Assembly (NCBI GenBank): GCA_965248835.1
Contig: CBDFLJ010000002.1
Location: forward strand, 2,336,001 to 2,400,000
DNA: 64,000 nucleotides
From: Alphaproteobacteria bacterium
Lineage (GTDB): Bacteria; Pseudomonadota; Alphaproteobacteria; MPNO01
Reading direction: 5' to 3'
Below, piece by piece: positions 22,700 through 53,076 of the stretch. The notes under the pieces are model-generated. The model was not told the DNA's origin. It searched no databases and saw only the letters and a program-made list of their open reading frames with translations. A program made the position numbers and the translations under genes. Within the stretch, counting starts at the first letter, position 1; every line of letters begins with the position of its first letter.

Positions 22700-23015
22700 G
22701 ATTTTGTCCTTTAACGACAGTGTATGTGGGGCGCCGCTCGATGCGGGCGCTCCTGGTTTTGTTCACAATGTCGTGGAAGGTGACTTGGCTAACCGTCGAA
22801 ACAGTCCATCACGAGCGCAACAACGACCTCATAAACTGCCCGTGACTACACTGTCCCGGCGCCGGAGTCAACCGACCAAAGGGTCGGGCGCTGCACAGAG
22901 CGGCGAACGTCCTGCCCCCTCCCCCGGCGCGCCGGCCGGCCGGCGGCCGAGCCTATGGGCAGGAAATCGATCGAAAATGCCCTTATCCACAGCGGATTTT
23001 ATGGGAAAACTCCCT

Positions 23016-23048
23016 TTGACGCGGGGCATTCGTCTATCATATTGATAG
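23016..23048 (+). promoter_or_regulatory. Putative promoter with operator palindrome CTATCA-TAT-TGATAG
   Basis: TTGACG at 23016-23021; palindrome at 23034-23048 over the -10 region. Confidence 0.55.
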
Positions 23049-23116
23049 GTTCCTGGCGGGCGGCGGCCAGAATTGCCGGTCCGATCCGTGCGCAACCTGG
23101 CGTCGGAGGACCTGAA

Positions 23117-23662
23117 ATGAGCGAAGGCGCTCAAGCGCTCCGGTTGCGAAACACGGAAGAGGCCGTCCCGGCGCCCTATCACTACACCGCTTGCGGCCTG
23201 GACAACATCTACCTGCTGAGCGGCTACGCGCTGCATCGGACGCCTTACGGGCCGGGCGTGTCCGTCAAGGACGCGGACGGGCTCCACCGAGCCATCGGCC
23301 TCAGCCTGGCCGAACGCAAGAAGGTCCTGCAGCCGAAGGAGCTGAAGTGGCTCCGCAGGCACCTGGATCTGACCCAGTCCGAGCTCGCGCGCCTGTTGGG
23401 CTGCGACTCCCAGACGGTCGCGCGATGGGAGAAGGGCCACAGCAAGGCGCCCGGCTCGGCCGAACGCCTCATCCGCCTGCTATACGTCAACAAAGCCAGG
23501 ACCCGGCCGGACCTCCGCACGCTTCTGGAAGGCCTGGACGCCTCGGACGATGTCGTCGAGGCCGAGCGGCCGTTCGAAGCGGCGCCCGACGGCTGGCGAA
23601 TGGCCCGGGGCGCAAGCACCATGCGGCCCGGTTCCGGGCCAATGGGCGGCTTCCCGGGATGA
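23117..23662 (+). CDS. XRE/MqsA-like HTH antitoxin or regulator
   Basis: YHYTACGLDNIYL and LTQSELARLLGCDSQTVARWEKG. Confidence 0.85.
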   Translation: MSEGAQALRLRNTEEAVPAPYHYTACGLDNIYLLSGYALHRTPYGPGVSVKDADGLHRAIGLSLAERKKVLQPKELKWLRRHLDLTQSELARLLGCDSQTVARWEKGHSKAPGSAERLIRLLYVNKARTRPDLRTLLEGLDASDDVVEAERPFEAAPDGWRMARGASTMRPGSGPMGGFPG

Positions 23663-23850: not shown

Positions 23851-24459
23851 GTGGAGCTCTACGTCACCCCGACCTCGCCCTACGCCCGGCTGGCGATGAT
23901 CGCGCGGCTGGAGAAGGGGCTCGATGAGGTCGCGCTCGTTTGGACGCGCACCAGGGTACCCGACCACCCGATGCTCGCGTTCAACCCGTCGGGGCGCGTC
24001 CCGTTCCTCCGCCTCGACGACGGGACCGGCTTCGAGGACACCGACGTCATCGTCGAATATCTCGACGCGCTCGCGCCGCCGCACCGGTTCGCGCCGCCCG
24101 CGGGCGAGGCCTACTGGCCGTTTCGACGGCTTCAGGCAACGGCGCGGAGCATGCTGGACGGTGTCTCGCTGTGGGCGCGCGAGACCCTGCGCCCCGACGG
24201 CGAGCGGTCGGACCCGATCGCCGAACACGAGCGCCGCCGCGCCGCCCGCCTCGCCGATACGTTCGAGGCCGAAATCGGGGCGCCGGCTTTCGGCGGCCCG
24301 CTCAACATGGTCCAGATGCTCCTGTTCTGCACCCTCGATGTGGAACGCCGCCTGCCGGACTTCGATTGGCGCCCCGGCCGCCCCGGCCTCGCCGGATGGC
24401 ACGCGCGCATCGCGGCGATGCCGGCGGTGGCCGGCTCCCTCCCGCCGCCCGGGGTGTGA
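23851..24459 (+). CDS. Glutathione S-transferase family protein
   Basis: TSPYAR, NPSGRVP.L, DT.VIVEYLD. Confidence 0.9.
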   Translation: MELYVTPTSPYARLAMIARLEKGLDEVALVWTRTRVPDHPMLAFNPSGRVPFLRLDDGTGFEDTDVIVEYLDALAPPHRFAPPAGEAYWPFRRLQATARSMLDGVSLWARETLRPDGERSDPIAEHERRRAARLADTFEAEIGAPAFGGPLNMVQMLLFCTLDVERRLPDFDWRPGRPGLAGWHARIAAMPAVAGSLPPPGV

Positions 24460-24804
24460 GGGGTGGACGGGCGCCGCCGCGTATCGAAGCCCCCTGCCCC
24501 ATCCGCCTCCCGGCGGCAGAACGAGGCGCCGCGCTCCCGCTCGAACAAGGCGCGTGATCGCGGCAAAAGCGACCTGGGAAGTCTTGCAAATCATCTATCC
24601 CGTTCATCCGGGCATGGCCCGCGAATTCCGTGAGGGAGGCGCGAACTTCCTCCGGAAGCGGACGATGCCCGGTGATCGGATCATCAATTTCGATGATCGC
24701 CGGCCGGCGGCCGGACCCGTCAGCGGGTCCCGCACCGCCTGCGCATCGTGCGGGCCGATGATTTCGCAACAGCAGGTTTCGCGATACCGGCTCTGGTCGA
24801 TCTC

Positions 24805-27546
24805 TTAATGGCGGGCGGCTGTAGAAAGGCGTCGGAACTCCGGAGAGTCAACAAGAGTCCCTGCAACGGACCGGATTCGATCCAGTGCGTCCGTCAGATC
24901 ATGGGGAATCACCGCTGCCTCCGATGTTCCCACAGTCAAGTCGAGCAGCCGCAAGAGCGCGCTCGCCTTGACCTCATCATCGATGATGGAAAGTTTCGTT
25001 TCCCCATCGTCTTTGCCATAGAGGCCATAGTCGCGCATCGACGGGCAATCGAAAGGCAGGAGGAAGCGCTCGACCGCCCTGACGGCGTCAGCGAAAGCCT
25101 CTCTCGATGTCGCGGGTAACTTCGCGAAGGTACGCCTAACGCCCGGGGTAGCCAAAGAACGCTCCTGAGGCCACACCTGTCGAAGAAAGGGTGCGGCGGC
25201 GGATAGGAACAGCTCTGCCGCCGTCGGCGGCGTTTGGTTGTTGGCCGTCTCTTGCGAATTGTTATGAACGTAGCGTTGGATGGCGCCCGCCGCGGTTGCC
25301 CGATGCTCGTCATCGAGGGACCGCAGCATTTGCTGGATGCGAGGATTGGGCACCGCCGGCTCGCGGGTCTCGCGAAAGGCGCGCAAGGATTCGACAACCA
25401 GGCTGAACACCAGACGCTGCCGCGTTGCTCGCCGTATGCTCTCATCCGTTGCCCTTTTGGCCATCTCATCCCCGATGATCTTCAGGACATCGGTGGATTG
25501 ATTAGGCCGTCGAGCGATGGCGTCCCACAGGTCACGGGATGCGTCGTCGTCTACACGCAGAGGAGCGATCAAATGCTCCTCGGTCCAGTCGCGATCAGAC
25601 CTCCGAAAATACCGCAGGCCTTCGATCATCCGATGCCGCGCAATCAAACCGCTTCTGCCGGTGGCACCGACGACGGCGTCCCGCATTTGGCGCAGGTCGC
25701 TTCCGACGGCAAAGGGCTCAGCTACGTCCTTGAGCGAAGGACAAGAGGACAAGAATACTTCGACAAGTTTTCCCGAGGGATTATTGAGCGTATCGAGAGC
25801 CATGGGTTCCTGACCCTCATCCACGGAGTAGGGAAACTCGATCGATCCGGCATCCTCTTCCGGTTGCCGCCCGGTGTTGGTCGCTTCGACGGCGATCGGC
25901 CAGATCCGTAGCCACACCCCCGAGCCCGAGGGCGATGCAATGACCTGATTACCCCAGCTCCTCAGCCACTGGCTGATCCCTTCGATAGCGGCCGATAATG
26001 TTCCGTCGGACAGTTTTTCCAACAGGCGCAGAACCCGTTCCGCCTCGCCGTGCAAGTCGTGCTGTAGATCGTCCCCCGCCCCCGGCGGTTCGGGCGCATG
26101 CGCCTGACCAAAGAATTTCCATACGCTCGGGAACGTGTCGCCGCCATTCTCGACAGCTTCCAGATCGTCGAGGACGAGGGTCGTGTTCCCCGGTCGTCGG
26201 AGCCATTCGTCCGCGCGTGTTGCGGGGCCGCCGTACCAGATATCCGGATCACTGGACAAATCCGCTTCCAGGGCGCTCAATCGTGCGCTGCCTTGAAGCG
26301 CGTCGTATTGGTCATCGGGTCCGGGAGGGACGTAAGGAACCATGCGTGCTCCGGGAAATCCGTCATCGATCTTCATCTCGGCAAGTTCGCTAAACAGCCC
26401 AATTCTGCTCTCCAGCCATGAGCGCGCATCGGGCGGTAGATCGCCCCCGGCAACCTCGATCCGCTTGAGCTCCCGAGCAGCCCAATAGAGGCGGGCGTTC
26501 TTCACTTGGGCGGCATCCACCTTCCTCGGCCAATGATTACGCGGCGGGAGTTTGCGAAGCCGCGCGGCGATCGCTCTTTGGGTTTCTCTATCGAGCTCGC
26601 CAAAACGTAATGCCCGAAGCTCGGCAATTTCCGGAAATTCACGCAAGCCCCAGAAGTGACAATCATCGAGATCGGTAAGAAACACACCCACAACTTCGGC
26701 TGAAACCAGGCAAGAATTCAATGCGACCGCCGCCCACAGCCGGGTATGGATGGGAGAAGACCGCAAACGCCAGCGTTGAACGACGGGCAGCGCAACCCCG
26801 GGGTCCAACTCGATAATGCGCGCCACAACGGCGTGGAGCAGTTTGACTGCGGGGGCGATGCCGTCATGCCAGGCGTCGACCTCACCCTCTCTATCCGCTC
26901 TTGGGGCGGATTGTGTGTAGGACACCCGGAACAAAGAGCCCAACCGCCCAGGCTGCGATTTCCCATCCCAGCCAACCCGACGGGCGATGTCCAGGCCGTG
27001 ATTAACGGCTGCCTCGAGCGCGTTCGCCAAAGCGGACAGAAAGGGGGTTTCTTTGAGTTGCGCCAGCTCCAGAACATTCGGATCAATGAGATCGCCACTC
27101 GTCAGGCTCGCCAACAACAGCTCATCGAACGTGCTGGGGCGGCGCGGCTTCTTTTGGAGCAGCCATCGGAAGGCACTCATCGGCTCAACTTTCAAACGCG
27201 GCGCCACGAGGTTCGCGATTGCGGACACGATCGCGCCGGAACGGTCTCCGTGACGAAGGCGCTCTTGGATGCGGTAGATCGCCGTTGAGGGGCCTTCCTC
27301 GACGGTGACCTGGAACCAACTCTCTTCGATCAGGCGCCACGCGCTTGCCCAGGGCTCATCGAGCGCCGACCCTTCGGGCCTGTTCAACAACTCGGCGACC
27401 GCCATCCGTTCAATATGCCGATCAGGTTTCAACCCCAGTGCCCACTCGATCGTATCGGACTCGGCCAAGCGTTTTTCCAAGAAAGCGACCGTTGCCCGAA
27501 ACATGGCGCGATCGTTGCCGTCGAGGGTCGCCCAGGGAGGAATCAC
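24805..27546 (-). CDS. Large (about 913 aa) protein of unknown function coupled to the SIR2 gene; possibly equivalent to a Dsr1-like C-terminal region
   Basis: Long open frame, Trp-rich and probably helical; GTG at 27546 overlaps the SIR2 stop (GTGA). Confidence 0.8.
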   Translation of the reverse strand: MIPPWATLDGNDRAMFRATVAFLEKRLAESDTIEWALGLKPDRHIERMAVAELLNRPEGSALDEPWASAWRLIEESWFQVTVEEGPSTAIYRIQERLRHGDRSGAIVSAIANLVAPRLKVEPMSAFRWLLQKKPRRPSTFDELLLASLTSGDLIDPNVLELAQLKETPFLSALANALEAAVNHGLDIARRVGWDGKSQPGRLGSLFRVSYTQSAPRADREGEVDAWHDGIAPAVKLLHAVVARIIELDPGVALPVVQRWRLRSSPIHTRLWAAVALNSCLVSAEVVGVFLTDLDDCHFWGLREFPEIAELRALRFGELDRETQRAIAARLRKLPPRNHWPRKVDAAQVKNARLYWAARELKRIEVAGGDLPPDARSWLESRIGLFSELAEMKIDDGFPGARMVPYVPPGPDDQYDALQGSARLSALEADLSSDPDIWYGGPATRADEWLRRPGNTTLVLDDLEAVENGGDTFPSVWKFFGQAHAPEPPGAGDDLQHDLHGEAERVLRLLEKLSDGTLSAAIEGISQWLRSWGNQVIASPSGSGVWLRIWPIAVEATNTGRQPEEDAGSIEFPYSVDEGQEPMALDTLNNPSGKLVEVFLSSCPSLKDVAEPFAVGSDLRQMRDAVVGATGRSGLIARHRMIEGLRYFRRSDRDWTEEHLIAPLRVDDDASRDLWDAIARRPNQSTDVLKIIGDEMAKRATDESIRRATRQRLVFSLVVESLRAFRETREPAVPNPRIQQMLRSLDDEHRATAAGAIQRYVHNNSQETANNQTPPTAAELFLSAAAPFLRQVWPQERSLATPGVRRTFAKLPATSREAFADAVRAVERFLLPFDCPSMRDYGLYGKDDGETKLSIIDDEVKASALLRLLDLTVGTSEAAVIPHDLTDALDRIRSVAGTLVDSPEFRRLSTAARH

Positions 27547-28745
27547 GATTTGCGCCCCCGATCTTTCTCCCTGTATATCCCCACGATGGCGTCGAGCCAC
27601 CCCGGATCGGCTCTTGCGTCGGACGCCAACGCCGACAATCGAACGCGCTCGTTGGCGTTGCTCCTCCTGAGCAGGTGATCGAACAGGTCGCGGTCCGCGT
27701 CGGACGCGGCGGATCTGGCAGTTTTCACGATTCGCTGGATCTCCTTCTCGATCGCTTTCGTTTTTCCGTTAAAGGCCGAAAGCTCAGCCCACCGTTCCAG
27801 CGTCTGGTTTAGTGCGGCGTGATCGTTCCTGGACTCATAGTGGATCGGAGTGATCCCGCGTGATTTCCAATCCTCCAGAGCCACCGGGTCAGGACATTTG
27901 GCGCCGTGGAAGGTGAACCGCTCCTTGAGGTCGTCAAAACGAGATCCGTCCGCCGCAACGGCGTTCAAGAGATATCGCATCGGCGGGTCGTTGGCGCTGT
28001 AGCCGACCAGGACGAGGTGAAACAGGCGCGCGGCGTCATGGATGAAATCCGGGACGACCCGCCGCCGCAGGTAGTATTCGCCGAAATCCTGGTCGGAGAG
28101 AACGAGTTCCGAGAACCGACGCGGGTTTGTGTCCAACGCCCCGTGGATATGGAGCACGCCGGCGAACTCATTCCGTCGCGTCGGGCGCGGGATCGAGCCC
28201 AGCGAATAGGTCTCGACCGGGGGCCGAAGACGTTTCCCGGCGGCTTCGAGCAGGACGTCGAAGTTGGTCGTGACAATCGTCACCGCGCCGCCGCGGTCGG
28301 CGAGGCGCATGAGTGTGCGATGGATGGCCGCCGGCTTGTTTCCTTTGGCTCGCAGGAGTTTAACCACACATTGTCTTACGCTGCTGTCGTCTCGTGTCCG
28401 GTCGTCCAGGCGGCGTTCCAGCATGCCCAGCACGACATCGTAATCGCCAGCAATGAAACGCCTTACCTCCGCCGCTTGGCCATTGGTAAGACCCGAGCAA
28501 TCGGCTTGCCACAGGTTGCGGGCGTCACGCGGCAGACGGGACATGTCTTCGTGAACGGCTGGATCGAGCGCTTGATAAACATCGAGTACCAGTTCACGGA
28601 AAAGCGGCAGACCTGCCGGCTTCGAAATGCCGGCGCCGCAGATGAAGAGCACCTCGCCCCGCGCATGCGCCAGCAACAGGCGTTCCGGGATGGGCGGCAA
28701 GCCGGCGCCGAGCATGACGTGGCGGTCTTCGATGTCCGCTGCCAT
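27543..28745 (-). CDS. SIR2-like (defence-associated sirtuin NADase) protein
   Basis: ICGAGIS.PAGLP.F, TTNFD, HIHG and LVGYS motifs; PERLLLAHARGEV resembles the Dsr1-type N-terminus. Confidence 0.9.
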   Translation of the reverse strand: MAADIEDRHVMLGAGLPPIPERLLLAHARGEVLFICGAGISKPAGLPLFRELVLDVYQALDPAVHEDMSRLPRDARNLWQADCSGLTNGQAAEVRRFIAGDYDVVLGMLERRLDDRTRDDSSVRQCVVKLLRAKGNKPAAIHRTLMRLADRGGAVTIVTTNFDVLLEAAGKRLRPPVETYSLGSIPRPTRRNEFAGVLHIHGALDTNPRRFSELVLSDQDFGEYYLRRRVVPDFIHDAARLFHLVLVGYSANDPPMRYLLNAVAADGSRFDDLKERFTFHGAKCPDPVALEDWKSRGITPIHYESRNDHAALNQTLERWAELSAFNGKTKAIEKEIQRIVKTARSAASDADRDLFDHLLRRSNANERVRLSALASDARADPGWLDAIVGIYREKDRGRKS

Positions 28746-28750
28746 GCGGC

Positions 28751-30010
28751 TCAACGCCGAACCGTCAGTGCGCACTGCGCGGCGCGGCCGACCACCATCC
28801 GGGCCAGCCGCGAGAGCGTCCGTTCATCGACCCCGGGTTGCATCAGCGCGCCGGCGACGCCTTCTGCCAGGGTTTGCACGCTTGCGCCGATCTCGCCGAT
28901 CCGGCGGCGGACCAACGGCAGGCCGAGGCCCGCATCGGCCGCGAACGCCGCCCAGGCCTCGGCATCCATCTCGGCGAGCGTCGCGCGCTTGCCGATCTTC
29001 ATCGCCAGCCTGGGCGAAAGTTGGGGATAGGCGGGCGTCGCCAGAAGGTCGTAGAGCGGCGCGAGGCGCGGGCCGGCCTCATCGTACAGCAGGGAGAAGT
29101 TCTTGCCGTGCGCATCGGCGTTGCCGGCGATCAGATTGAAGATCACCGCGTCGAGCAGCTTCAGCACATCAACCGCGGGCCGCGACGCGAGGCGGCGAAG
29201 GATCGCGAAGCAATCCTCGAAGGCCGGGCCGCCCTCGCTTGGGTATTTCAACTCCGGGGCGACGCCGAGCGCCTGGCAAAAGTCCTCCTGGTGAACCCGG
29301 CGGGCGATGCCCTCGGCACCGGCCGATCGGTCGTAGCGCTCGACCAGCAGGAACGTGCGATCCCGCACCACGCGCGCCTCCACCGGCGCGACATCGAGAC
29401 CTGCCGCCGCGGCGAGGCGCATCACGAAGGCCTCGTTCTCGGTCGTGCCGAGAAAGCGCGCGATCGGCGGCTTGAGAATGTGGGTCGTCGGAACCGCTTG
29501 TACGGGCAACGCGACCGCGCCGTCGACCACGACCACCGGCAGCTTCGATTGCGCGCCGGCAAGCGAAAGTCTCAGCCCCCCTTCACCGGCCAGCAGCGGA
29601 CGCACCGGCAGCGTATCGAGCACACGGATCAGGCCCGCCTCGTCGAGCGGCTGCGGCCGCAGGCCCGGAGCGGGCGCCGCCGGCGGTGCTCCGGGCGGCA
29701 GAAGCTGAAGCGCGCCGGCGACATCGCCGCCGAGCCGATCGAGAAGGGCGAAATCATTGGCGCTTGAAACGCCGAGAACTTGCGCCGCCGCATCCCGCTG
29801 GCTTTCCTCGGGCAGCAGGCCGCCGAAAAACGGACGGCATTCGCGGCGGGAATAGGGCATTTCGCGCTTGGGCAAGGAGGCCGACAGGGCCGGAGCGTCC
29901 TCCTGGCCAAGCCAACCGGCCGCGTAGACGAAGCCGAGATCGCCGTGCCAGTCCTGTGTCAGCCGGCCGACATGCCGGCCTTCCCACCAGACATCGAGAA
30001 CACGGTTCAT
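28751..30010 (-). CDS. hipA: HipA family Ser/Thr kinase toxin
   Basis: LSASLP, FFGGLLPE, SLAGAQSK, HQEDFCQALG, GNADAHGKNFS, LAPLYD. Confidence 0.96.
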   Translation of the reverse strand: MNRVLDVWWEGRHVGRLTQDWHGDLGFVYAAGWLGQEDAPALSASLPKREMPYSRRECRPFFGGLLPEESQRDAAAQVLGVSSANDFALLDRLGGDVAGALQLLPPGAPPAAPAPGLRPQPLDEAGLIRVLDTLPVRPLLAGEGGLRLSLAGAQSKLPVVVVDGAVALPVQAVPTTHILKPPIARFLGTTENEAFVMRLAAAAGLDVAPVEARVVRDRTFLLVERYDRSAGAEGIARRVHQEDFCQALGVAPELKYPSEGGPAFEDCFAILRRLASRPAVDVLKLLDAVIFNLIAGNADAHGKNFSLLYDEAGPRLAPLYDLLATPAYPQLSPRLAMKIGKRATLAEMDAEAWAAFAADAGLGLPLVRRRIGEIGASVQTLAEGVAGALMQPGVDERTLSRLARMVVGRAAQCALTVRR

Positions 30011-30255
30011 CGCTTCGCGTTGCGCACGCCGTCGGCTTCCGGAGGCGGTGCGATGTCAAACGAGCAGCCCAGCGCCTGCAGCACCTGGAGCGCTTTGCCG
30101 AGCTGCACGGTGGGTTTTCCGGCTTCGAGATCGACGATGAAGCGCAGCCCGACGCCCGCCGCCCCGGCGAGCTCATACTGCCGCAGGCCAGCGGCTTTGC
30201 GGGCGGCGCGGACGATACGGCCGATCTCGGCCGGGGTCAGGGTTCGCTGAGACAT
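30007..30255 (-). CDS. hipB: HipB-like XRE antitoxin (y4mF-like)
   Basis: RKAAGLRQYELAGAAGVGLRFIVDLEAGKPT; ATGA overlap with hipA. Confidence 0.92.
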   Translation of the reverse strand: MSQRTLTPAEIGRIVRAARKAAGLRQYELAGAAGVGLRFIVDLEAGKPTVQLGKALQVLQALGCSFDIAPPPEADGVRNAKR

Positions 30256-30257
30256 GA

Positions 30258-30372
30258 TATTTACCGATCGGGAATATATTCGGAATCTTCAGGCGTGTCA
30301 ACAAAATTAGCCCGATCGGGAATATTGAGAGCATCCGGCGTTCAAGAATCAGTAAATGCCCCGTCCGGGAAT
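30258..30372 (-). promoter_or_regulatory. Sigma70 promoter TTGACA-N17-TATATT with three operator-like palindromes
   Basis: -35 at 30301-30296 and -10 at 30278-30273; repeats TTACCGATCGGGAAT, GCCCGATCGGGAAT and GCCCCGTCCGGGAAT about 48 bp apart. Confidence 0.75.
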
Positions 30373-30901
30373 GTCACGCGGTTTCGCGTAACGCGTCCTC
30401 GCCAAATACCCGGCAATCCTGCGTGCAGCCGTATCATCGCCGAGGTGCTGCGATGGCCGACGATCGCCGGGCCTTCCGCCGGGTTCGGCGTCAATCAGGC
30501 GATGGTCCGCCCGGCCAGCGCCTCACGGCCGGCATGCCGGTCCTGGGGCAAACGAGCCGAGATTTTCGCGCTGCCAGTGGTCCAACATCGGGGGCAAGTC
30601 CTTCCTCCTGGCTCCAAGACCCGAGGATGGACCGATTCGATGGGGGAGGATCGGCTGCGCGGCAAGCCGACGAAGCCCGCCGGATGTGCGAGCCGGGTGA
30701 GGTCCGTGTGTTGCCCGCGGCGTCTGGGACCGGGAAAACGCGACGCCCGCTCATGGATAGATCAAAGCGCCCCGACCGAGGAGCGTTTCGTTCTCGAGCG
30801 CATCGAAGATGGTTTCCACTTCCGCGAGGGGCACGCGCATACCGACGACGGGCTCCACCAGCCCGCGCGCCCTGATGACGGCATGACTCACGGCGGCGGG
30901 C

Positions 30902-51584: not shown

Positions 51585-52262
51585 ATGGCCACGGCCAATG
51601 GGGCTATCCGACAAGAGGTGATAACCGTTTGCCGTGTGCTGGACGGGTTGGGGTTGGTGGAGGGTTTCGGCCACGTCAGCGTTCGCCAGCCGGATGGCAA
51701 CGTACTCATCACCCCTGCCCGAGCGCCAGGGCTCGTACGACCAGACGAATTTCTAACGTTTAACCTGGAAGGCGAATTGGTCGCCGGAGACGACGGAACA
51801 GGGCCCTTGGAACGCTGGATGCACTTCGCCGTATACCGGGCGCGACCCGACATCCGGGCGATTGCTCGCACCCATTCTCGAATGGCTGCCGCGCTGGGTG
51901 TGGCGAATACGCCCATTTTCACCGCGCACGGCTTCGGCGGAATGTTGGGCGCAGTCGTACCTGTTCACCCAGAAAACGACCTGATTACGGATGATGCGAT
52001 GGGTCAGGCCGTAGCGGCGTCCCTGAATGGCAACGCCGGAGTGCTTCTGCGGGGAAATGGAGCGTTGGTGACAGGGACTACATTACCTCAAGCCTGCGTC
52101 CGCGCCATTTATCTAGAAGAGGCCGCTTGGTTGCAGGTAACAGCAGCCGGGGTCGGGGGGGTGGTTCCATTCACAGTGGACGAGCTAAACGCGCGGTCAC
52201 GCTGGCACGAAGCTGAGATGGAGCGCGCCTGGCATTACTACAGCGCCAAATTCGGCGTTTAG
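51585..52262 (+). CDS. Class II aldolase/adducin family protein
   Basis: GHVSVR, E..MH..VYRARPD; metal ligands altered (RTHS, LRGNG). Confidence 0.85.
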   Translation: MATANGAIRQEVITVCRVLDGLGLVEGFGHVSVRQPDGNVLITPARAPGLVRPDEFLTFNLEGELVAGDDGTGPLERWMHFAVYRARPDIRAIARTHSRMAAALGVANTPIFTAHGFGGMLGAVVPVHPENDLITDDAMGQAVAASLNGNAGVLLRGNGALVTGTTLPQACVRAIYLEEAAWLQVTAAGVGGVVPFTVDELNARSRWHEAEMERAWHYYSAKFGV

Positions 52263-52298
52263 GGGTCGCGTGTGCGACATAGCTGGTGAAGGTTAGGC

Positions 52299-52385
52299 AT
52301 GGCGCGGATCGGTTACGCTCGGGTCAGCTCCCGCGATCAGGATCTGAGCATCCAGCTCGACGCGCTGGAAAATGCTGGTTTAGAA
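52299..52385 (+). pseudogene. Serine resolvase 5' remnant
   Basis: MARIGYARVSSRDQDLSIQLDAL. Confidence 0.85.
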
Positions 52386-52444
52386 ACAAATCCCAGGTCA
52401 TTGGGAGCCATCCATCGTGGGGAATGTAAATTAATAGAGATTGG

Positions 52445-53076
52445 GTGATCCCCATCATTAGGAACAACAAAGGATATGAGAAATTACCAATATTTCTCAT
52501 GGGTTCTCTTTACATAGACTTTGAAGATGAGCTTCTTTACGAGAAAACTACGAAGAACTCCTTCGATCATTGTTGGATGAGCCTGTCCTGCCGATACCTC
52601 CGCTTGGGGAAAACCCATTTAAAACTGTAAGACAGTTCACCAATGAGAAATTCTTGCCCAATTCCGAAAAATACGTATCACCAGAAACTACGGGTAGAGT
52701 TACTTTCGACTATTCCAACAACAACGGAAGGTACTGCATTGGATCTGGAGAGTTAATGTTTGACATAAATTGGTCCAAGTCCAGTGATCATAACATTCAA
52801 CTTCTCAGTGATCCAGATAGTATCGACACTGTTGCAGTGGTCAAAGACAAGAATCAGATAAGAGAAATAGACGACGCGCGGACTTACGACAATTCTTCTA
52901 GGATTCGCCGTCCCAAGGTTGAACAGATTGCAGTGTTAAGGAACGCGAACGGGTTTTTTGCAGCAATAAAGGTCATAAGTATTAAGGATGACAACCGTGG
53001 TAGTCCATTCGATGAGATTACCTTCGACTATGTTATCCAGACCAATCGATCACCAAGCTTTGTCGGAAGCGCCTGA
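52445..53076 (+). pseudogene. AT-rich remnant of a TIR/SEFIR-type protein (TIR tail plus FDYSNNNG C-terminal domain)
   Basis: IPIIR...LP.FL...YIDFED tail, PPLG.NPF linker, VTFDYSNNNG; frameshift near 52545-52570; 5' end missing. Confidence 0.6.

What the first reader, a model, noticed from the sequence alone, without database searches (positions are those of the whole stretch)
24805..30372. hipB-hipA-SIR2-large partner: a four-gene operon joining a kinase TA module to a sirtuin defence module
Seen: one near-consensus promoter with three operator-like palindromes, then hipB/hipA (ATGA overlap), a 5-nt gap, the SIR2 gene, and a GTGA overlap into a 913-aa unknown protein; all four are intact in a heavily decayed region. 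Known: bacterial SIR2 domains deplete NAD+ in Thoeris, DSR1/DSR2, SIR2-HerA and SIR2-pAgo systems; HipA kinases arrest growth and HipB autorepresses. Inference: an undescribed antiphage system in which the large protein senses infection and gates the NADase, with HipBA providing transcriptional or phosphorylation control. This is the top candidate in the window.
Basis: partly seen in the sequence, partly recalled or inferred. Interest (0 to 1): 0.85.

Follow-up and report, generated by a model that had tools for sequence, protein, structure and literature searches.

The report
HipBA toxin-antitoxin fronting split DSR1-like sirtuin
The four genes are real and probably one transcript, but they are two separate modules: an ordinary HipBA toxin-antitoxin pair, and behind it a two-gene split form of the known anti-phage sirtuin DSR1, which nearly always occurs without HipBA.

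Summary
hipB, hipA, a 400-aa SIR2 gene and a 913-aa gene lie head to tail on the minus strand, with the stated ATGA overlap, 5-nt gap and GTGA overlap. They follow one near-consensus promoter with three palindromes.

SIR2 plus the 913-aa protein is a split member of the DSR1 (defence-associated sirtuin 1) family, not an undescribed kind of system. Both halves hit only Dsr1 models. They are collinear with about 1310-aa single-chain relatives, and a profile comparison covers the whole large protein. The split is old and stable: 46 of 47 loci show a 4-nt or 1-nt stop/start overlap.

hipBA is not part of that system as a rule. It precedes the pair in 2 of 46 assessable genome loci. The pair follows hipBA in 0 of 66 assessable metagenome hipBA loci. 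The palindromes are the operators of this hipBA lineage, with or without SIR2.

The linkage is still inherited rather than accidental here. Three loci share the same TGA-N5-ATG junction, and two related loci keep short hipA 3' remnants.

Best reading: a HipB-controlled operon carrying two stacked defence modules. Function is inferred, not tested.

The parts
30361..30374 (-). Distal operator-like box, a degenerate copy of the HipB-type palindrome
   Evidence: Third member (79% identity) of a 14-nt repeat family. It aligns with a conserved TTCCCG..CGGGA box in 6 hipBA loci.
30312..30325 (-). Operator-like palindrome just upstream of the -35 hexamer
   Evidence: Exact 14-nt repeat copy. The core TTCCCGAnCGG is invariant in 6 of 6 aligned hipBA promoter regions, whether SIR2-linked or stand-alone.
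30273..30301 (-). Sigma-70-type promoter, TTGACA-17-TATATT
   Evidence: 11 of 12 matches. It is the only promoter-like site on either strand of 24300-30700.
30264..30277 (-). Operator-like palindrome overlapping the -10 hexamer and the start of the transcript
   Evidence: Exact repeat copy and palindrome. Conserved in 6 of 6 hipBA loci directly before the hipB ATG.
30007..30255 (-). hipB, an HTH antitoxin and repressor of the Y4mF/couple_hipB type, 82 aa
   Evidence: Pfam HTH_3 at 6.7e-09. NCBIfam TIGR03070 at 79.6 bits, above the 71.65 cut-off. ATGA overlap with hipA.
28751..30010 (-). hipA, a Ser/Thr kinase toxin, 419 aa
   Evidence: HipA_C at 2.6e-51 and Couple_hipA at 6.8e-24. The stretches LAGAQSK, GNADAHGKN and LYDLL are present and largely invariant (17 of 21 residues) in the 5-sequence alignment. 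It is the only HipA in the genome at E<=1e-5.
27543..28745 (-). SIR2 subunit, the N-terminal part of a split DSR1-family protein and the predicted NADase, 400 aa
   Evidence: SIR2_2 at 4.6e-18. PADLOC Dsr1 at 1.2e-49 over model positions 8-294 of 1275. NCBIfam Dsr1 at 205 bits. 74% identical to residues 1-398 of the 1312-aa P0121. N161, D163, H199 and H201 invariant in 34 of 34.
24805..27546 (-). Sensor subunit, the rest of the split DSR1-family protein, an all-helical solenoid, 913 aa
   Evidence: PADLOC Dsr1 at 1.4e-16 over model positions 860-1236 of 1248; NCBIfam Dsr1 at 86 bits over positions 900-1262 of 1263. 57% identical to residues 401-1311 of P0121. hhalign against 13 single-chain DSR1-like proteins: probability 100, E 1.3e-45, columns 17-912 against 408-1244. 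AF2 model is all helical, mean pLDDT 71.3. GTGA overlap with SIR2.

Best explanation
The locus is a composite operon made of two modules that can each stand alone.

Module 1 is a classical hipBA type II toxin-antitoxin pair. It has its own promoter and three HipB-type operators.

Module 2 is a two-gene, translationally coupled split form of a DSR1-family defence sirtuin.
- The 400-aa SIR2 subunit is the NAD+-degrading effector.
- The 913-aa helical-solenoid subunit corresponds to the DSR1 sensor region.
- The two subunits are predicted to dock through the SIR2 C-terminal helices and the N-terminal helices of the large protein. These are the two ends that are joined in single-chain relatives.

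Inferred mechanism, by homology with E. coli Dsr1: the sensor subunit binds a phage structural protein. For EcDsr1 that protein is the major capsid protein. Binding releases the NADase, NAD+ falls, and phage replication stops.

In one small clade, module 2 was captured directly behind hipA with a TGA-N5-ATG junction. No promoter-like site lies between hipA and the SIR2 gene. Module 2 is therefore most likely transcribed from the HipB-repressed promoter.

HipBA is not needed to keep or run the sirtuin pair. It most likely acts as a second, independent defence or stabilising module, and it also sets the expression level of the pair.

Shown here: gene structure, homology, collinearity, distribution and junction conservation. 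Inferred: co-transcription, NADase activity, the trigger, and any defence phenotype.
For: Split DSR1-family identity:
- Both halves hit Dsr1 models.
- They are collinear with the 1312-aa P0121, with no gap between the halves.
- The profile comparison covers the whole large protein.
- Catalytic-type residues are invariant in 34 of 34 homologues.

The split is stable, not a pseudogene:
- SIR2 lies directly upstream of the large gene in 47 of 50 genome loci.
- The junction is a 4-nt NTGA overlap in 37, a 1-nt TGATG overlap in 9, and irregular in 1 of 47.
- Of the best 150 representatives of 50%-identity clusters, 100 are stand-alone (850-1000 aa), 42 are short and 8 are fused.
- dN/dS against L015 is 0.19 for SIR2 and 0.33 for the large gene.

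The subunits are predicted to bind:
- Score 0.73 against 0.00 for the best of 3 controls.
- That mark was reached by 58 of 80 solved complexes and 2 of 110 mismatched pairs. These counts hold only roughly here, because my own alignments were used.
- The runs agree in at least 96% of contacts, and the partner's pLDDT is at least 78.
- The interface is SIR2 residues 364-392 with large-protein residues 10-46.
- No chain in the PDB resembles the large protein by sequence, so recall of a solved complex is unlikely.

hipBA is separable:
- It is present in 2 of 46 assessable SIR2-pair loci.
- Clustering the upstream ORFs gives the two HipA as the only recurring family.
- None of 66 assessable metagenome hipBA loci carries the pair.
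- The operators are shared by stand-alone hipBA.

The linkage is inherited:
- The same TGA-N5-ATG junction occurs in the window, L015 and L017.
- The window and L015 group together in the sirtuin-pair tree (98*) and in the HipA tree (96/93*).
- L008 keeps a 20-codon hipA 3' remnant and L001 about 20 nt of one, each directly before SIR2.

One transcript:
- There is one promoter-like site in 6.4 kb.
- Of the 8 terminator-like sites, none lies between genes; the four on the coding strand fall inside the SIR2 and large genes. Shuffles give a mean of 5.1 such sites.

Known biology:
- DSR1 depletes NAD+ on infection (preprint 10.1101/2021.12.14.472415, passages).
- The major capsid protein triggers EcDsr1 through a sensor shared with Avs7 (preprint 10.64898/2026.01.04.697583, section 5).
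Against: - No experiment and no RNA data bear on this locus.
- The pair scores far below the NCBIfam Dsr1 equivalog cut-off: 205 and 86 bits against 1400. Transfer of function and trigger from EcDsr1 is therefore long-range.
- The structure searches gave only generic helical-repeat matches.
- The linkage has lasted between the window and L015 through a synonymous divergence (dS) of about 0.7-1.1 in all four genes. The junction is exactly conserved in three loci. Both would also fit selection for a functional coupling that I cannot see.
- In L001, which lost hipBA, the SIR2 match is split into two overlapping pieces, which suggests a frameshift or an assembly error.
Confidence: 0.7

Rival explanations
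1. This is an integrated four-gene defence system. HipB and HipA would gate the sirtuin, either by phosphorylating SIR2 or the sensor, or by de-repressing the operon when HipB decays during infection. On this view the pair depends on HipBA in this clade.
For: - The tight TGA-N5-ATG junction is conserved in 3 of 3 linked loci.
- Linkage between the window and L015 is retained at a synonymous divergence (dS) of 0.66-1.1, with all four genes under purifying selection, dN/dS 0.19-0.33.
- There is no promoter-like site between hipA and SIR2.
- A HipA-family kinase system (DS-6/HipAD) has been validated as a phage defence (PMC13092281, passages).
- L001, which lost hipBA, has a disrupted SIR2 match.
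Against: - 44 of 46 assessable SIR2-pair loci lack hipBA.
- None of 66 assessable hipBA loci carries the pair.
- L008 lost hipBA, leaving a remnant, yet keeps both genes open with dN/dS of 0.15 and 0.24.
- The operators and promoter are those of stand-alone hipBA.
- EcDsr1 works as a single protein.
Confidence: 0.12
2. hipBA serves as an addiction or stabilising module for a mobile cassette. It keeps the costly NADase pair from being lost and has no role in sensing or regulation beyond supplying the promoter.
For: - The pair is patchy and mobile. It was found in 1 of 40 other relatives and in 2 of 400 other genomes of the class.
- It occurs on seven conjugative plasmids; in the one inspected it is flanked by IS elements and an integrase.
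- The window/L015 clade spans two phyla.
- hipBA and the pair differ in G+C by the same offset in the window and in L015. This fits two sources joined once.
Against: - hipBA was itself lost twice while the pair stayed.
- The window's flanks are ordinary chromosomal genes with no integrase, and there is no tRNA gene anywhere in the window.
- This reading does not exclude the best explanation.
Confidence: 0.1
3. The pair is not a defence system. It is a housekeeping sirtuin (a protein deacylase) with a regulatory partner.
For: - There are weak matches to CobB-type deacylase models, 17-27 bits against cut-offs of 221-395.
- The immediate flanks are metabolic and transport genes.
Against: - The best matches by far are Dsr1 models.
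- The Pfam family is SIR2_2, not the canonical SIR2 family.
- The distribution is rare and patchy.
- Several copies are broken or interrupted.
- Neighbours in other loci include integrases, PIN, HepT, GmrSD, Old, HEC-06 and Uzume proteins.
Confidence: 0.04

Closest known systems
DSR1 (defence-associated sirtuin 1; EcDsr1 and the DSR1 tested in Bacillus subtilis; NCBIfam NF041818, PADLOC Dsr1)
   Same: - An N-terminal SIR2_2-type domain with the Asn/His motifs, followed by a long helical sensor region that is homologous over its whole length.
- The total length of 400 + 913 aa is close to the model lengths of 1248-1275.
- The expected output is NAD+ depletion.
- The expected trigger is a phage structural protein; for EcDsr1 it is the major capsid protein.
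   Different: - It is encoded as two translationally coupled genes instead of one polypeptide (46 of 47 loci).
- It is very divergent: 205 and 86 bits against an equivalog cut-off of 1400. Even fused relatives reach only 255-553 bits.
- The middle of the Dsr1 models (about 300-860) is not matched by hmmscan and is found only by profile-profile comparison.
- No activity has been tested.
DSR2 (Bacillus subtilis), a SIR2 domain plus an alpha-solenoid C-terminal sensor
   Same: It has the same logic: a SIR2 NADase held in check by a helical-repeat sensor that binds a phage structural protein. For DSR2 that protein is the tail tube protein (abstracts seen in the listing; PMC11850899 abstract: the CTD is an alpha-solenoid).
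   Different: - There was no Dsr2 model among the PADLOC hits of either protein at E<=0.01.
- No DSR2 chain appeared among the listed structure matches, which is inconclusive.
- DSR2 is a single chain.
Avs7 sensor domain (preprint 10.64898/2026.01.04.697583)
   Same: According to that preprint, the Dsr1 sensor is homologous to the Avs7 sensor and both recognise major capsid proteins (section 5). The 913-aa protein is homologous to the Dsr1 sensor region.
   Different: - There is no STAND NTPase here.
- I did not compare the 913-aa protein with an Avs7 sequence.
- The preprint's Supplementary Table 8 lists 9,097 sensor-bearing proteins with their architectures. I could not see it, and it may already include stand-alone sensors of this kind.
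E. coli K-12 HipBA type II toxin-antitoxin
   Same: - The order is hipB then hipA, with overlapping stop and start codons.
- The antitoxin is an HTH protein.
- The HipA N- and C-terminal domains are present.
- Several palindromic operators lie over the promoter.
- In the E. coli model, HipA phosphorylates glutamyl-tRNA synthetase and HipB neutralises HipA and represses the promoter (PMC13092281, passages).
   Different: - The operator sequence is different (TTCCCGAnCGGGAA).
- HipB is of the Y4mF/couple_hipB type.
- Two further genes follow on the same transcript.
- The target of this HipA is unknown.
HipAD / DS-6, a HipA-family kinase defence system
   Same: A HipA-family kinase whose catalytic residue is needed for phage defence (PMC13092281, passages). 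It shows that a HipA module can itself be a defence.
   Different: Its partner is a DUF3037/DUF1829 protein, not HipB. No sirtuin is involved.
Two-gene SIR2 systems: SIR2-HerA, Thoeris ThsA/ThsB, SIR2-APAZ/pAgo
   Same: Each is a SIR2 NADase encoded next to a partner gene that controls it.
   Different: - The partner here has no HerA, TIR, APAZ or pAgo domain. It has no Pfam family, and its only PADLOC hits are Dsr1 models.
- The SIR2 protein scores 1.2e-49 on Dsr1 against 9.4e-09 or weaker on the ThsA, SIR2 (HerA-type) and Aga models.

Membership tests
DSR1 (defence-associated sirtuin 1) | N-terminal SIR2 domain with the catalytic Asn and His | tested here: met
   SIR2_2 at 4.6e-18. Matches positions 8-294 of 1275 of the PADLOC Dsr1 model at 1.2e-49. 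N161, D163, H199 and H201 are invariant in 34 of 34 homologues. That these are the catalytic residues is my recall, by analogy with other sirtuins.
DSR1 (defence-associated sirtuin 1) | Dsr1-type helical sensor region after the SIR2 domain | tested here: met
   The large protein matches Dsr1 model positions 860-1236 of 1248 (1.4e-16) and 900-1262 of 1263 (86 bits). hhalign against 13 single-chain DSR1-like proteins gives probability 100 and E 1.3e-45 over columns 17-912.
DSR1 (defence-associated sirtuin 1) | Single polypeptide of about 1200-1300 aa | tested here: not met
   There are two ORFs with a GTGA overlap. The same split occurs in 46 of 47 loci. Fused relatives exist: 98 of the 108 proteins found in the longer-protein search have 1150 aa or more.
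DSR1 (defence-associated sirtuin 1) | Score above the curated NCBIfam equivalog cut-off (NF041818, 1400 bits) | tested here: not met
   205 bits for SIR2 and 86.1 bits for the large protein. The closest fused relatives score 277 and 255 bits; more DSR1-like ones score 553 and 501.
DSR1 (defence-associated sirtuin 1) | NAD+ depletion and phage protection on infection, with a capsid protein as trigger | not testable with these tools
   Known for DSR1 and EcDsr1 only from papers.
HipBA type II toxin-antitoxin | HipA kinase with the N-terminal coupling domain and the C-terminal kinase domain | tested here: met
   HipA_C at 2.6e-51 and Couple_hipA at 6.8e-24. Three kinase-type stretches are present and largely invariant (17 of 21 residues) in the alignment. 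Assigning them to the Gly-rich loop, the catalytic motif and the Mg-binding motif is my recall.
HipBA type II toxin-antitoxin | HTH antitoxin gene directly upstream, overlapping hipA | tested here: met
   TIGR03070 couple_hipB at 79.6 bits, above the 71.65 cut-off. ATGA overlap.
HipBA type II toxin-antitoxin | Palindromic operators over the promoter (autoregulation) | tested here: met
   Three boxes are present at the sequence level and conserved in 6 of 6 hipBA loci. Binding by HipB was not tested.
HipBA type II toxin-antitoxin | Toxicity of HipA and its neutralisation by HipB | not testable with these tools
   No experiment was done.
   hipBA precedes the pair in 2 of 46 assessable sirtuin-pair loci. 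The pair follows hipBA in 0 of 66 assessable hipBA loci. The linkage is confined to one small clade, plus L017 whose placement is unresolved.
SIR2-HerA, Thoeris, SIR2-pAgo | The partner gene encodes HerA, a TIR protein (ThsB), or APAZ/pAgo | tested here: not met
   The large protein has no Pfam family. Its only PADLOC hits are the two Dsr1 models.

The most novel reading that the evidence does not exclude
In this clade HipBA would be a working front end of the sirtuin system, making a two-signal defence. The HipB-operated promoter keeps the NADase pair nearly silent. Decay of HipB during phage-induced shut-off would then both free the HipA kinase and switch on the capsid-sensing split Dsr1, or HipA would phosphorylate one of its subunits. 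That would be the first case of a toxin-antitoxin module acting as the regulatory gate of a separate NAD+-depleting immune effector.
Probability: 0.12. Interest if true: 0.7.

Novelty: new variant of a known kind. Interest (0 to 1): 0.35.

Why it matters
Three points follow if the reading is right.

1. A large set of 'hypothetical' proteins of about 910 aa can be read as the detached sensor half of DSR1-type sirtuins. The set comprises 696 representatives of 50%-identity clusters at E<=0.001. They occur mostly in Alphaproteobacteria and also in Nitrospirota, Planctomycetota and Gammaproteobacteria. RefSeq annotation of the B. japonicum plasmid copy calls the pair 'SIR2 family protein' plus 'hypothetical protein'. 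Neither half reaches the curated Dsr1 cut-off, so model-based annotation with that cut-off would not name them. I did not run PADLOC or DefenseFinder as pipelines.

2. A natural split gives a clean system for asking how a DSR1 sensor controls its NADase. The predicted interface is SIR2 residues 364-392 with sensor residues 10-46.

3. The hipBA fusion shows how defence modules become stacked into one transcript and later come apart, leaving remnants of the deleted gene. It also offers a cheap test of whether a toxin-antitoxin promoter can regulate a neighbouring immune effector.

None of this would much surprise a specialist.

Tried and rejected
- **Expression.** The look-up of sequencing runs was busy at first. 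On the second try no RNA holder was listed: there were four runs from one study, each holding about 0.26 of the sampled words.
- **Island limits by synteny.** Same-genus and same-family genomes match only scattered conserved genes at about 70% identity, so no limits could be drawn.
- **PDB by sequence.** There were 0 hits for the large protein and only two weak, uninformative hits for SIR2.
- **Structure searches with the AF2 model** (pLDDT 71.3).
  - Foldseek gave karyopherin and importin solenoids at E about 1e-5 with TM 0.2-0.3.
  - VIA-align gave ARM/HEAT proteins at Z up to 9.6, and the Avs4 sensor at Z 7.9.
  - These Z values are below what counts for helical repeats, so the result shows only a helical solenoid. 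No DSR2 or Avs7 chain was listed, which is inconclusive.
- **Nearest relatives.** Whether they carry hipBA is unknown.
- **Viral contigs.** Only 1 related locus was found, so there is no sign that the pair is mainly phage-borne.
- **tRNA genes.** None in the window.
- **HipA with SIR2 or the sensor.** I did not test binding. The single complex job went to SIR2 with the sensor.
- **Literature.** Four searches listed no paper describing a hipBA-sirtuin operon or a split DSR1. I saw listings, abstract starts and the passages cited, never supplements. The HipA survey PMC8262856 has 0 occurrences of 'SIR2' or 'sirtuin' in its main text.

Full report
**What is there**

On the minus strand, four open frames follow each other without room for signals between them.
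- hipB lies at 30007-30255 and hipA at 28751-30010. Their stop and start overlap as ATGA.
- A 400-aa SIR2 gene lies at 27543-28745. Its ATG comes 5 nt after the hipA TGA.
- A 913-aa gene lies at 24805-27546. Its GTG overlaps the SIR2 stop as GTGA.

Upstream of hipB lies TTGACA-17-TATATT, the only promoter-like site on either strand of 24300-30700. One such site is also what shuffled sequence gives on average, so the count alone proves nothing. Three copies of a palindromic box lie over and upstream of this promoter. The remark that the surroundings are heavily decayed is not supported for the seven flanking ORFs I scanned, which give ordinary domain matches.

**The first two genes are a normal hipBA module**
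- HipB reaches the curated cut-off of the couple_hipB/Y4mF antitoxin model. HipA has both HipA domains.
- The genome holds no other HipA at E<=1e-5.
- I aligned the promoter regions of six hipBA loci: three with the sirtuin pair behind them (window, L015, L017) and three without (L080, L054, L077). All show the same TTCCCGAnCGGGAA box at the same three places.
- The promoter and its operators therefore belong to this hipBA lineage and are not a feature of a four-gene system.

**The last two genes are one split DSR1-family protein**
- In PADLOC the SIR2 protein matches the start of a Dsr1 model (positions 8-294 of 1275, E 1.2e-49). The large protein matches the end of one (positions 860-1236 of 1248, E 1.4e-16).
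- NCBIfam Dsr1 gives 205 and 86 bits in the same arrangement.
- A search for longer relatives of the SIR2 protein found 108 proteins, 98 of them with 1150 aa or more.
- The closest full-length one, P0121 (1312 aa), aligns with SIR2 over its residues 1-398 (74% identity) and with the large protein over 401-1311 (57%). Nothing is missing or duplicated.
- A profile of the large protein aligns with a profile of 13 more DSR1-like single-chain proteins over columns 17-912 against 408-1244 (probability 100, E 1.3e-45).
- All of these score well below the NCBIfam equivalog cut-off of 1400 bits: 255-553 for the fused forms. This is a distant branch of the DSR1 family, not an orthologue of the tested proteins.

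**The split is the normal state of this branch, not damage**
- Of 50 genome loci with a relative of the large gene, 47 have the SIR2 gene directly upstream. The other three are 5'-truncated copies or contig ends.
- In those 47 loci the stop and start overlap by 4 nt (NTGA) in 37 and by 1 nt (TGATG) in 9. One locus is irregular.
- Among the best 150 of 696 cluster representatives, 100 are stand-alone proteins of 850-1000 aa, 42 are shorter and 8 are fused.
- A complex prediction of SIR2 with residues 1-560 of the large protein passed.
  - The score was 0.73 against 0.00 for the best of three controls.
  - That mark was reached by 58 of 80 solved complexes and 2 of 110 mismatched pairs, counts that hold only roughly with my own alignments.
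  - The runs agree in at least 96% of contacts, and the partner's pLDDT is at least 78.
  - The contact joins SIR2 residues 364-392 to large-protein residues 10-46. These are the two ends that are continuous in the fused forms.
- The AF2 model of the large protein is entirely helical (mean pLDDT 71.3). It finds only generic solenoid proteins in the PDB.

**How often hipBA and the pair go together**
- From the side of the pair: 46 of the 47 loci have enough upstream sequence to judge, and 2 carry hipBA. These are L015, a Thermodesulfobacteriota genome, and L017, a Hyphomicrobiales genome.
- I clustered 126 upstream ORFs. The two HipA were the only family seen in more than one locus. The rest are a mixture that includes integrases, PIN, HepT, GmrSD, a resolvase, a transposase and metabolic genes. 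A few hit PADLOC models such as HEC-06, Old, UzuA and methyltransferases.
- From the side of hipBA: a metagenome scan returned 80 hipBA loci with HipA 45-80% identical. Of these, 66 have at least 300 nt downstream, and none has the pair.
- In a 400-genome sample of the class, the two closest hipBA (72% and 69% identity) have a convergent gene downstream instead. The tally of 24 of 401 genomes with a HipA match includes one genome flagged as unpublished (G279).
- The pair itself is rare. It was found in 1 of 40 other relatives and in 2 of 400 other genomes of the class, one of them a partial match at a contig end.
- It also occurs in seven conjugative plasmid records. In the one inspected (a B. 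japonicum plasmid) it sits among IS elements and an integrase and is annotated 'SIR2 family protein' plus 'hypothetical protein'.

**The linkage is nevertheless inherited, not a local accident**
- The window, L015 and L017 share the same junction: TGA, five bases, ATG.
- The window and L015 fall in one small starred group in the tree of the sirtuin pair (with L008; 98*; 34 rows, 17 loci left out as partial or broken).
- They also fall in one starred group in the HipA tree (with L080; 96/93*).
- L017 is unresolved in both trees. A tree that holds the window, L015, L017 and L008 together is not rejected (p-AU 0.61). I named that group only after seeing the tree.
- L008 lacks hipBA. Directly before its SIR2 start it keeps 20 codons that read like the HipA C-terminus, in frame and in place. 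They are closest to the L015 HipA (E 0.12 in a very small search, so the argument rests on position).
- L001 is the nearest genome relative (88.7% DNA identity over the pair). It keeps about 20 nt of the hipA 3' end, and homology starts 31 nt before the SIR2 ATG.
- The simplest history is one capture of the pair behind hipA, spread across phyla as a unit, and at least two later deletions of hipBA.
- All four genes are under purifying selection between the window and L015 (dN/dS 0.19-0.33). The sensor evolves fastest.
- hipBA is richer in G+C than the pair by a similar margin in the window and in L015, as expected for two parts of different origin.

**How it most likely works**

Shown: the architecture, the homology, and the absence of signals between the genes.

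Inferred:
- One transcript starts at the HipB-controlled promoter.
- The SIR2 and sensor subunits assemble into a DSR1-like complex.
- By analogy with EcDsr1, the sensor binds a phage structural protein and releases the NADase. In a 2026 preprint, the major capsid protein was the only activator found for EcDsr1, and the sensor is shared with Avs7 (10.64898/2026.01.04.697583, section 5).
- DSR1 was shown to lower NAD+ on infection, transiently and without growth arrest against phi29 (10.1101/2021.12.14.472415, passages). A 2026 paper still calls DSR1 poorly characterised (PMC13464706, passage).
- HipBA most likely acts on its own as a kinase toxin-antitoxin module. A HipA-family kinase system has been validated as a phage defence (PMC13092281, passages).
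- Close stand-alone relatives of this hipBA sit beside other defence genes: IetS in L077 and HEC-07 in L054. This lineage looks like a regular resident of defence islands.
- I could not test whether HipB repression or HipA activity matters for the sirtuin pair. I put that at about 0.12.

**Verdict**

The finding is real, and most of it can be explained by known families. It is a split, divergent DSR1-type sirtuin system, placed in one small clade behind a hipBA module. It is not a new kind of system. The split architecture and the composite operon are variants worth a short note and a simple experiment.

Noticed in passing
L077 6300-8807 (-); L094 5754-7922 (-); L054 47-1465 (+): Stand-alone close relatives of this hipBA (HipA 72-79% identical) have a known defence gene convergent to hipA. 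L077 has IetS (PADLOC, 986 bits), L094 has a Peptidase_S8 protein like it, and L054 has HEC-07 (506 bits). This hipBA lineage seems to live in defence islands.
   Followed up: partly
L081 1253-3553 (+): In the sister clade of the window's HipA (77% identity), a co-directional 766-aa ORF starts 70 nt after hipA. It has no Pfam or PADLOC family, but it is a conserved hypothetical protein: Atlas clusters of 114, 85 and 60 members. It has only weak structural leads to Card1/Mrr-type nucleases (TM below 0.5). It may be another cargo gene behind hipBA.
   Followed up: partly
L055 42-1475 (+): Another stand-alone hipBA (HipA 68-69% identical) is convergent to a phage-tail or gene-transfer-agent type protein (Phage-tail_3 and Rcc01698_C domains).
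   Followed up: no
L001 6803-8001; L028 5606-8001; L041 5570-7998: Several copies of the sirtuin pair look broken. In L001 the SIR2 match is split into two overlapping pieces, which suggests a frameshift or an assembly error. In L028 and L041 the SIR2 match is interrupted by about 1.2 kb. Of the 50 loci, 17 were left out of the tree as partial, split or carrying a stop; some of these are merely contig ends.
   Followed up: partly
window 22955-23662 (+): An ORF with an MqsA-like/Xre HTH domain (MqsA_antitoxin at 28.9 bits, just under the cut-off of 30) lies 1.1 kb downstream of the operon. I saw no obvious toxin partner.
   Followed up: no
window 52001-53000: G+C drops to 0.489, against 0.64 for the whole window. 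This is the lowest 1-kb bin in the window and may be foreign DNA.
   Followed up: no
window 24805-30255: Within the operon, hipB and hipA have G+C of 0.69-0.70 (third codon positions about 0.80). SIR2 and the sensor gene have 0.62 and 0.61 (third positions 0.74 and 0.68). The same offset is seen in L015.
   Followed up: yes
L161 (NZ_CP066352.1 119325-123286): A Bradyrhizobium japonicum conjugative plasmid carries the pair (sensor 53% identical) between IS elements and an integrase. RefSeq starts the sensor gene 63 nt after the SIR2 stop. This locus was not in my overlap tally; the tblastn match to the sensor begins 4 nt before the annotated SIR2 end, so the annotated start may be too far downstream.
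   Followed up: no
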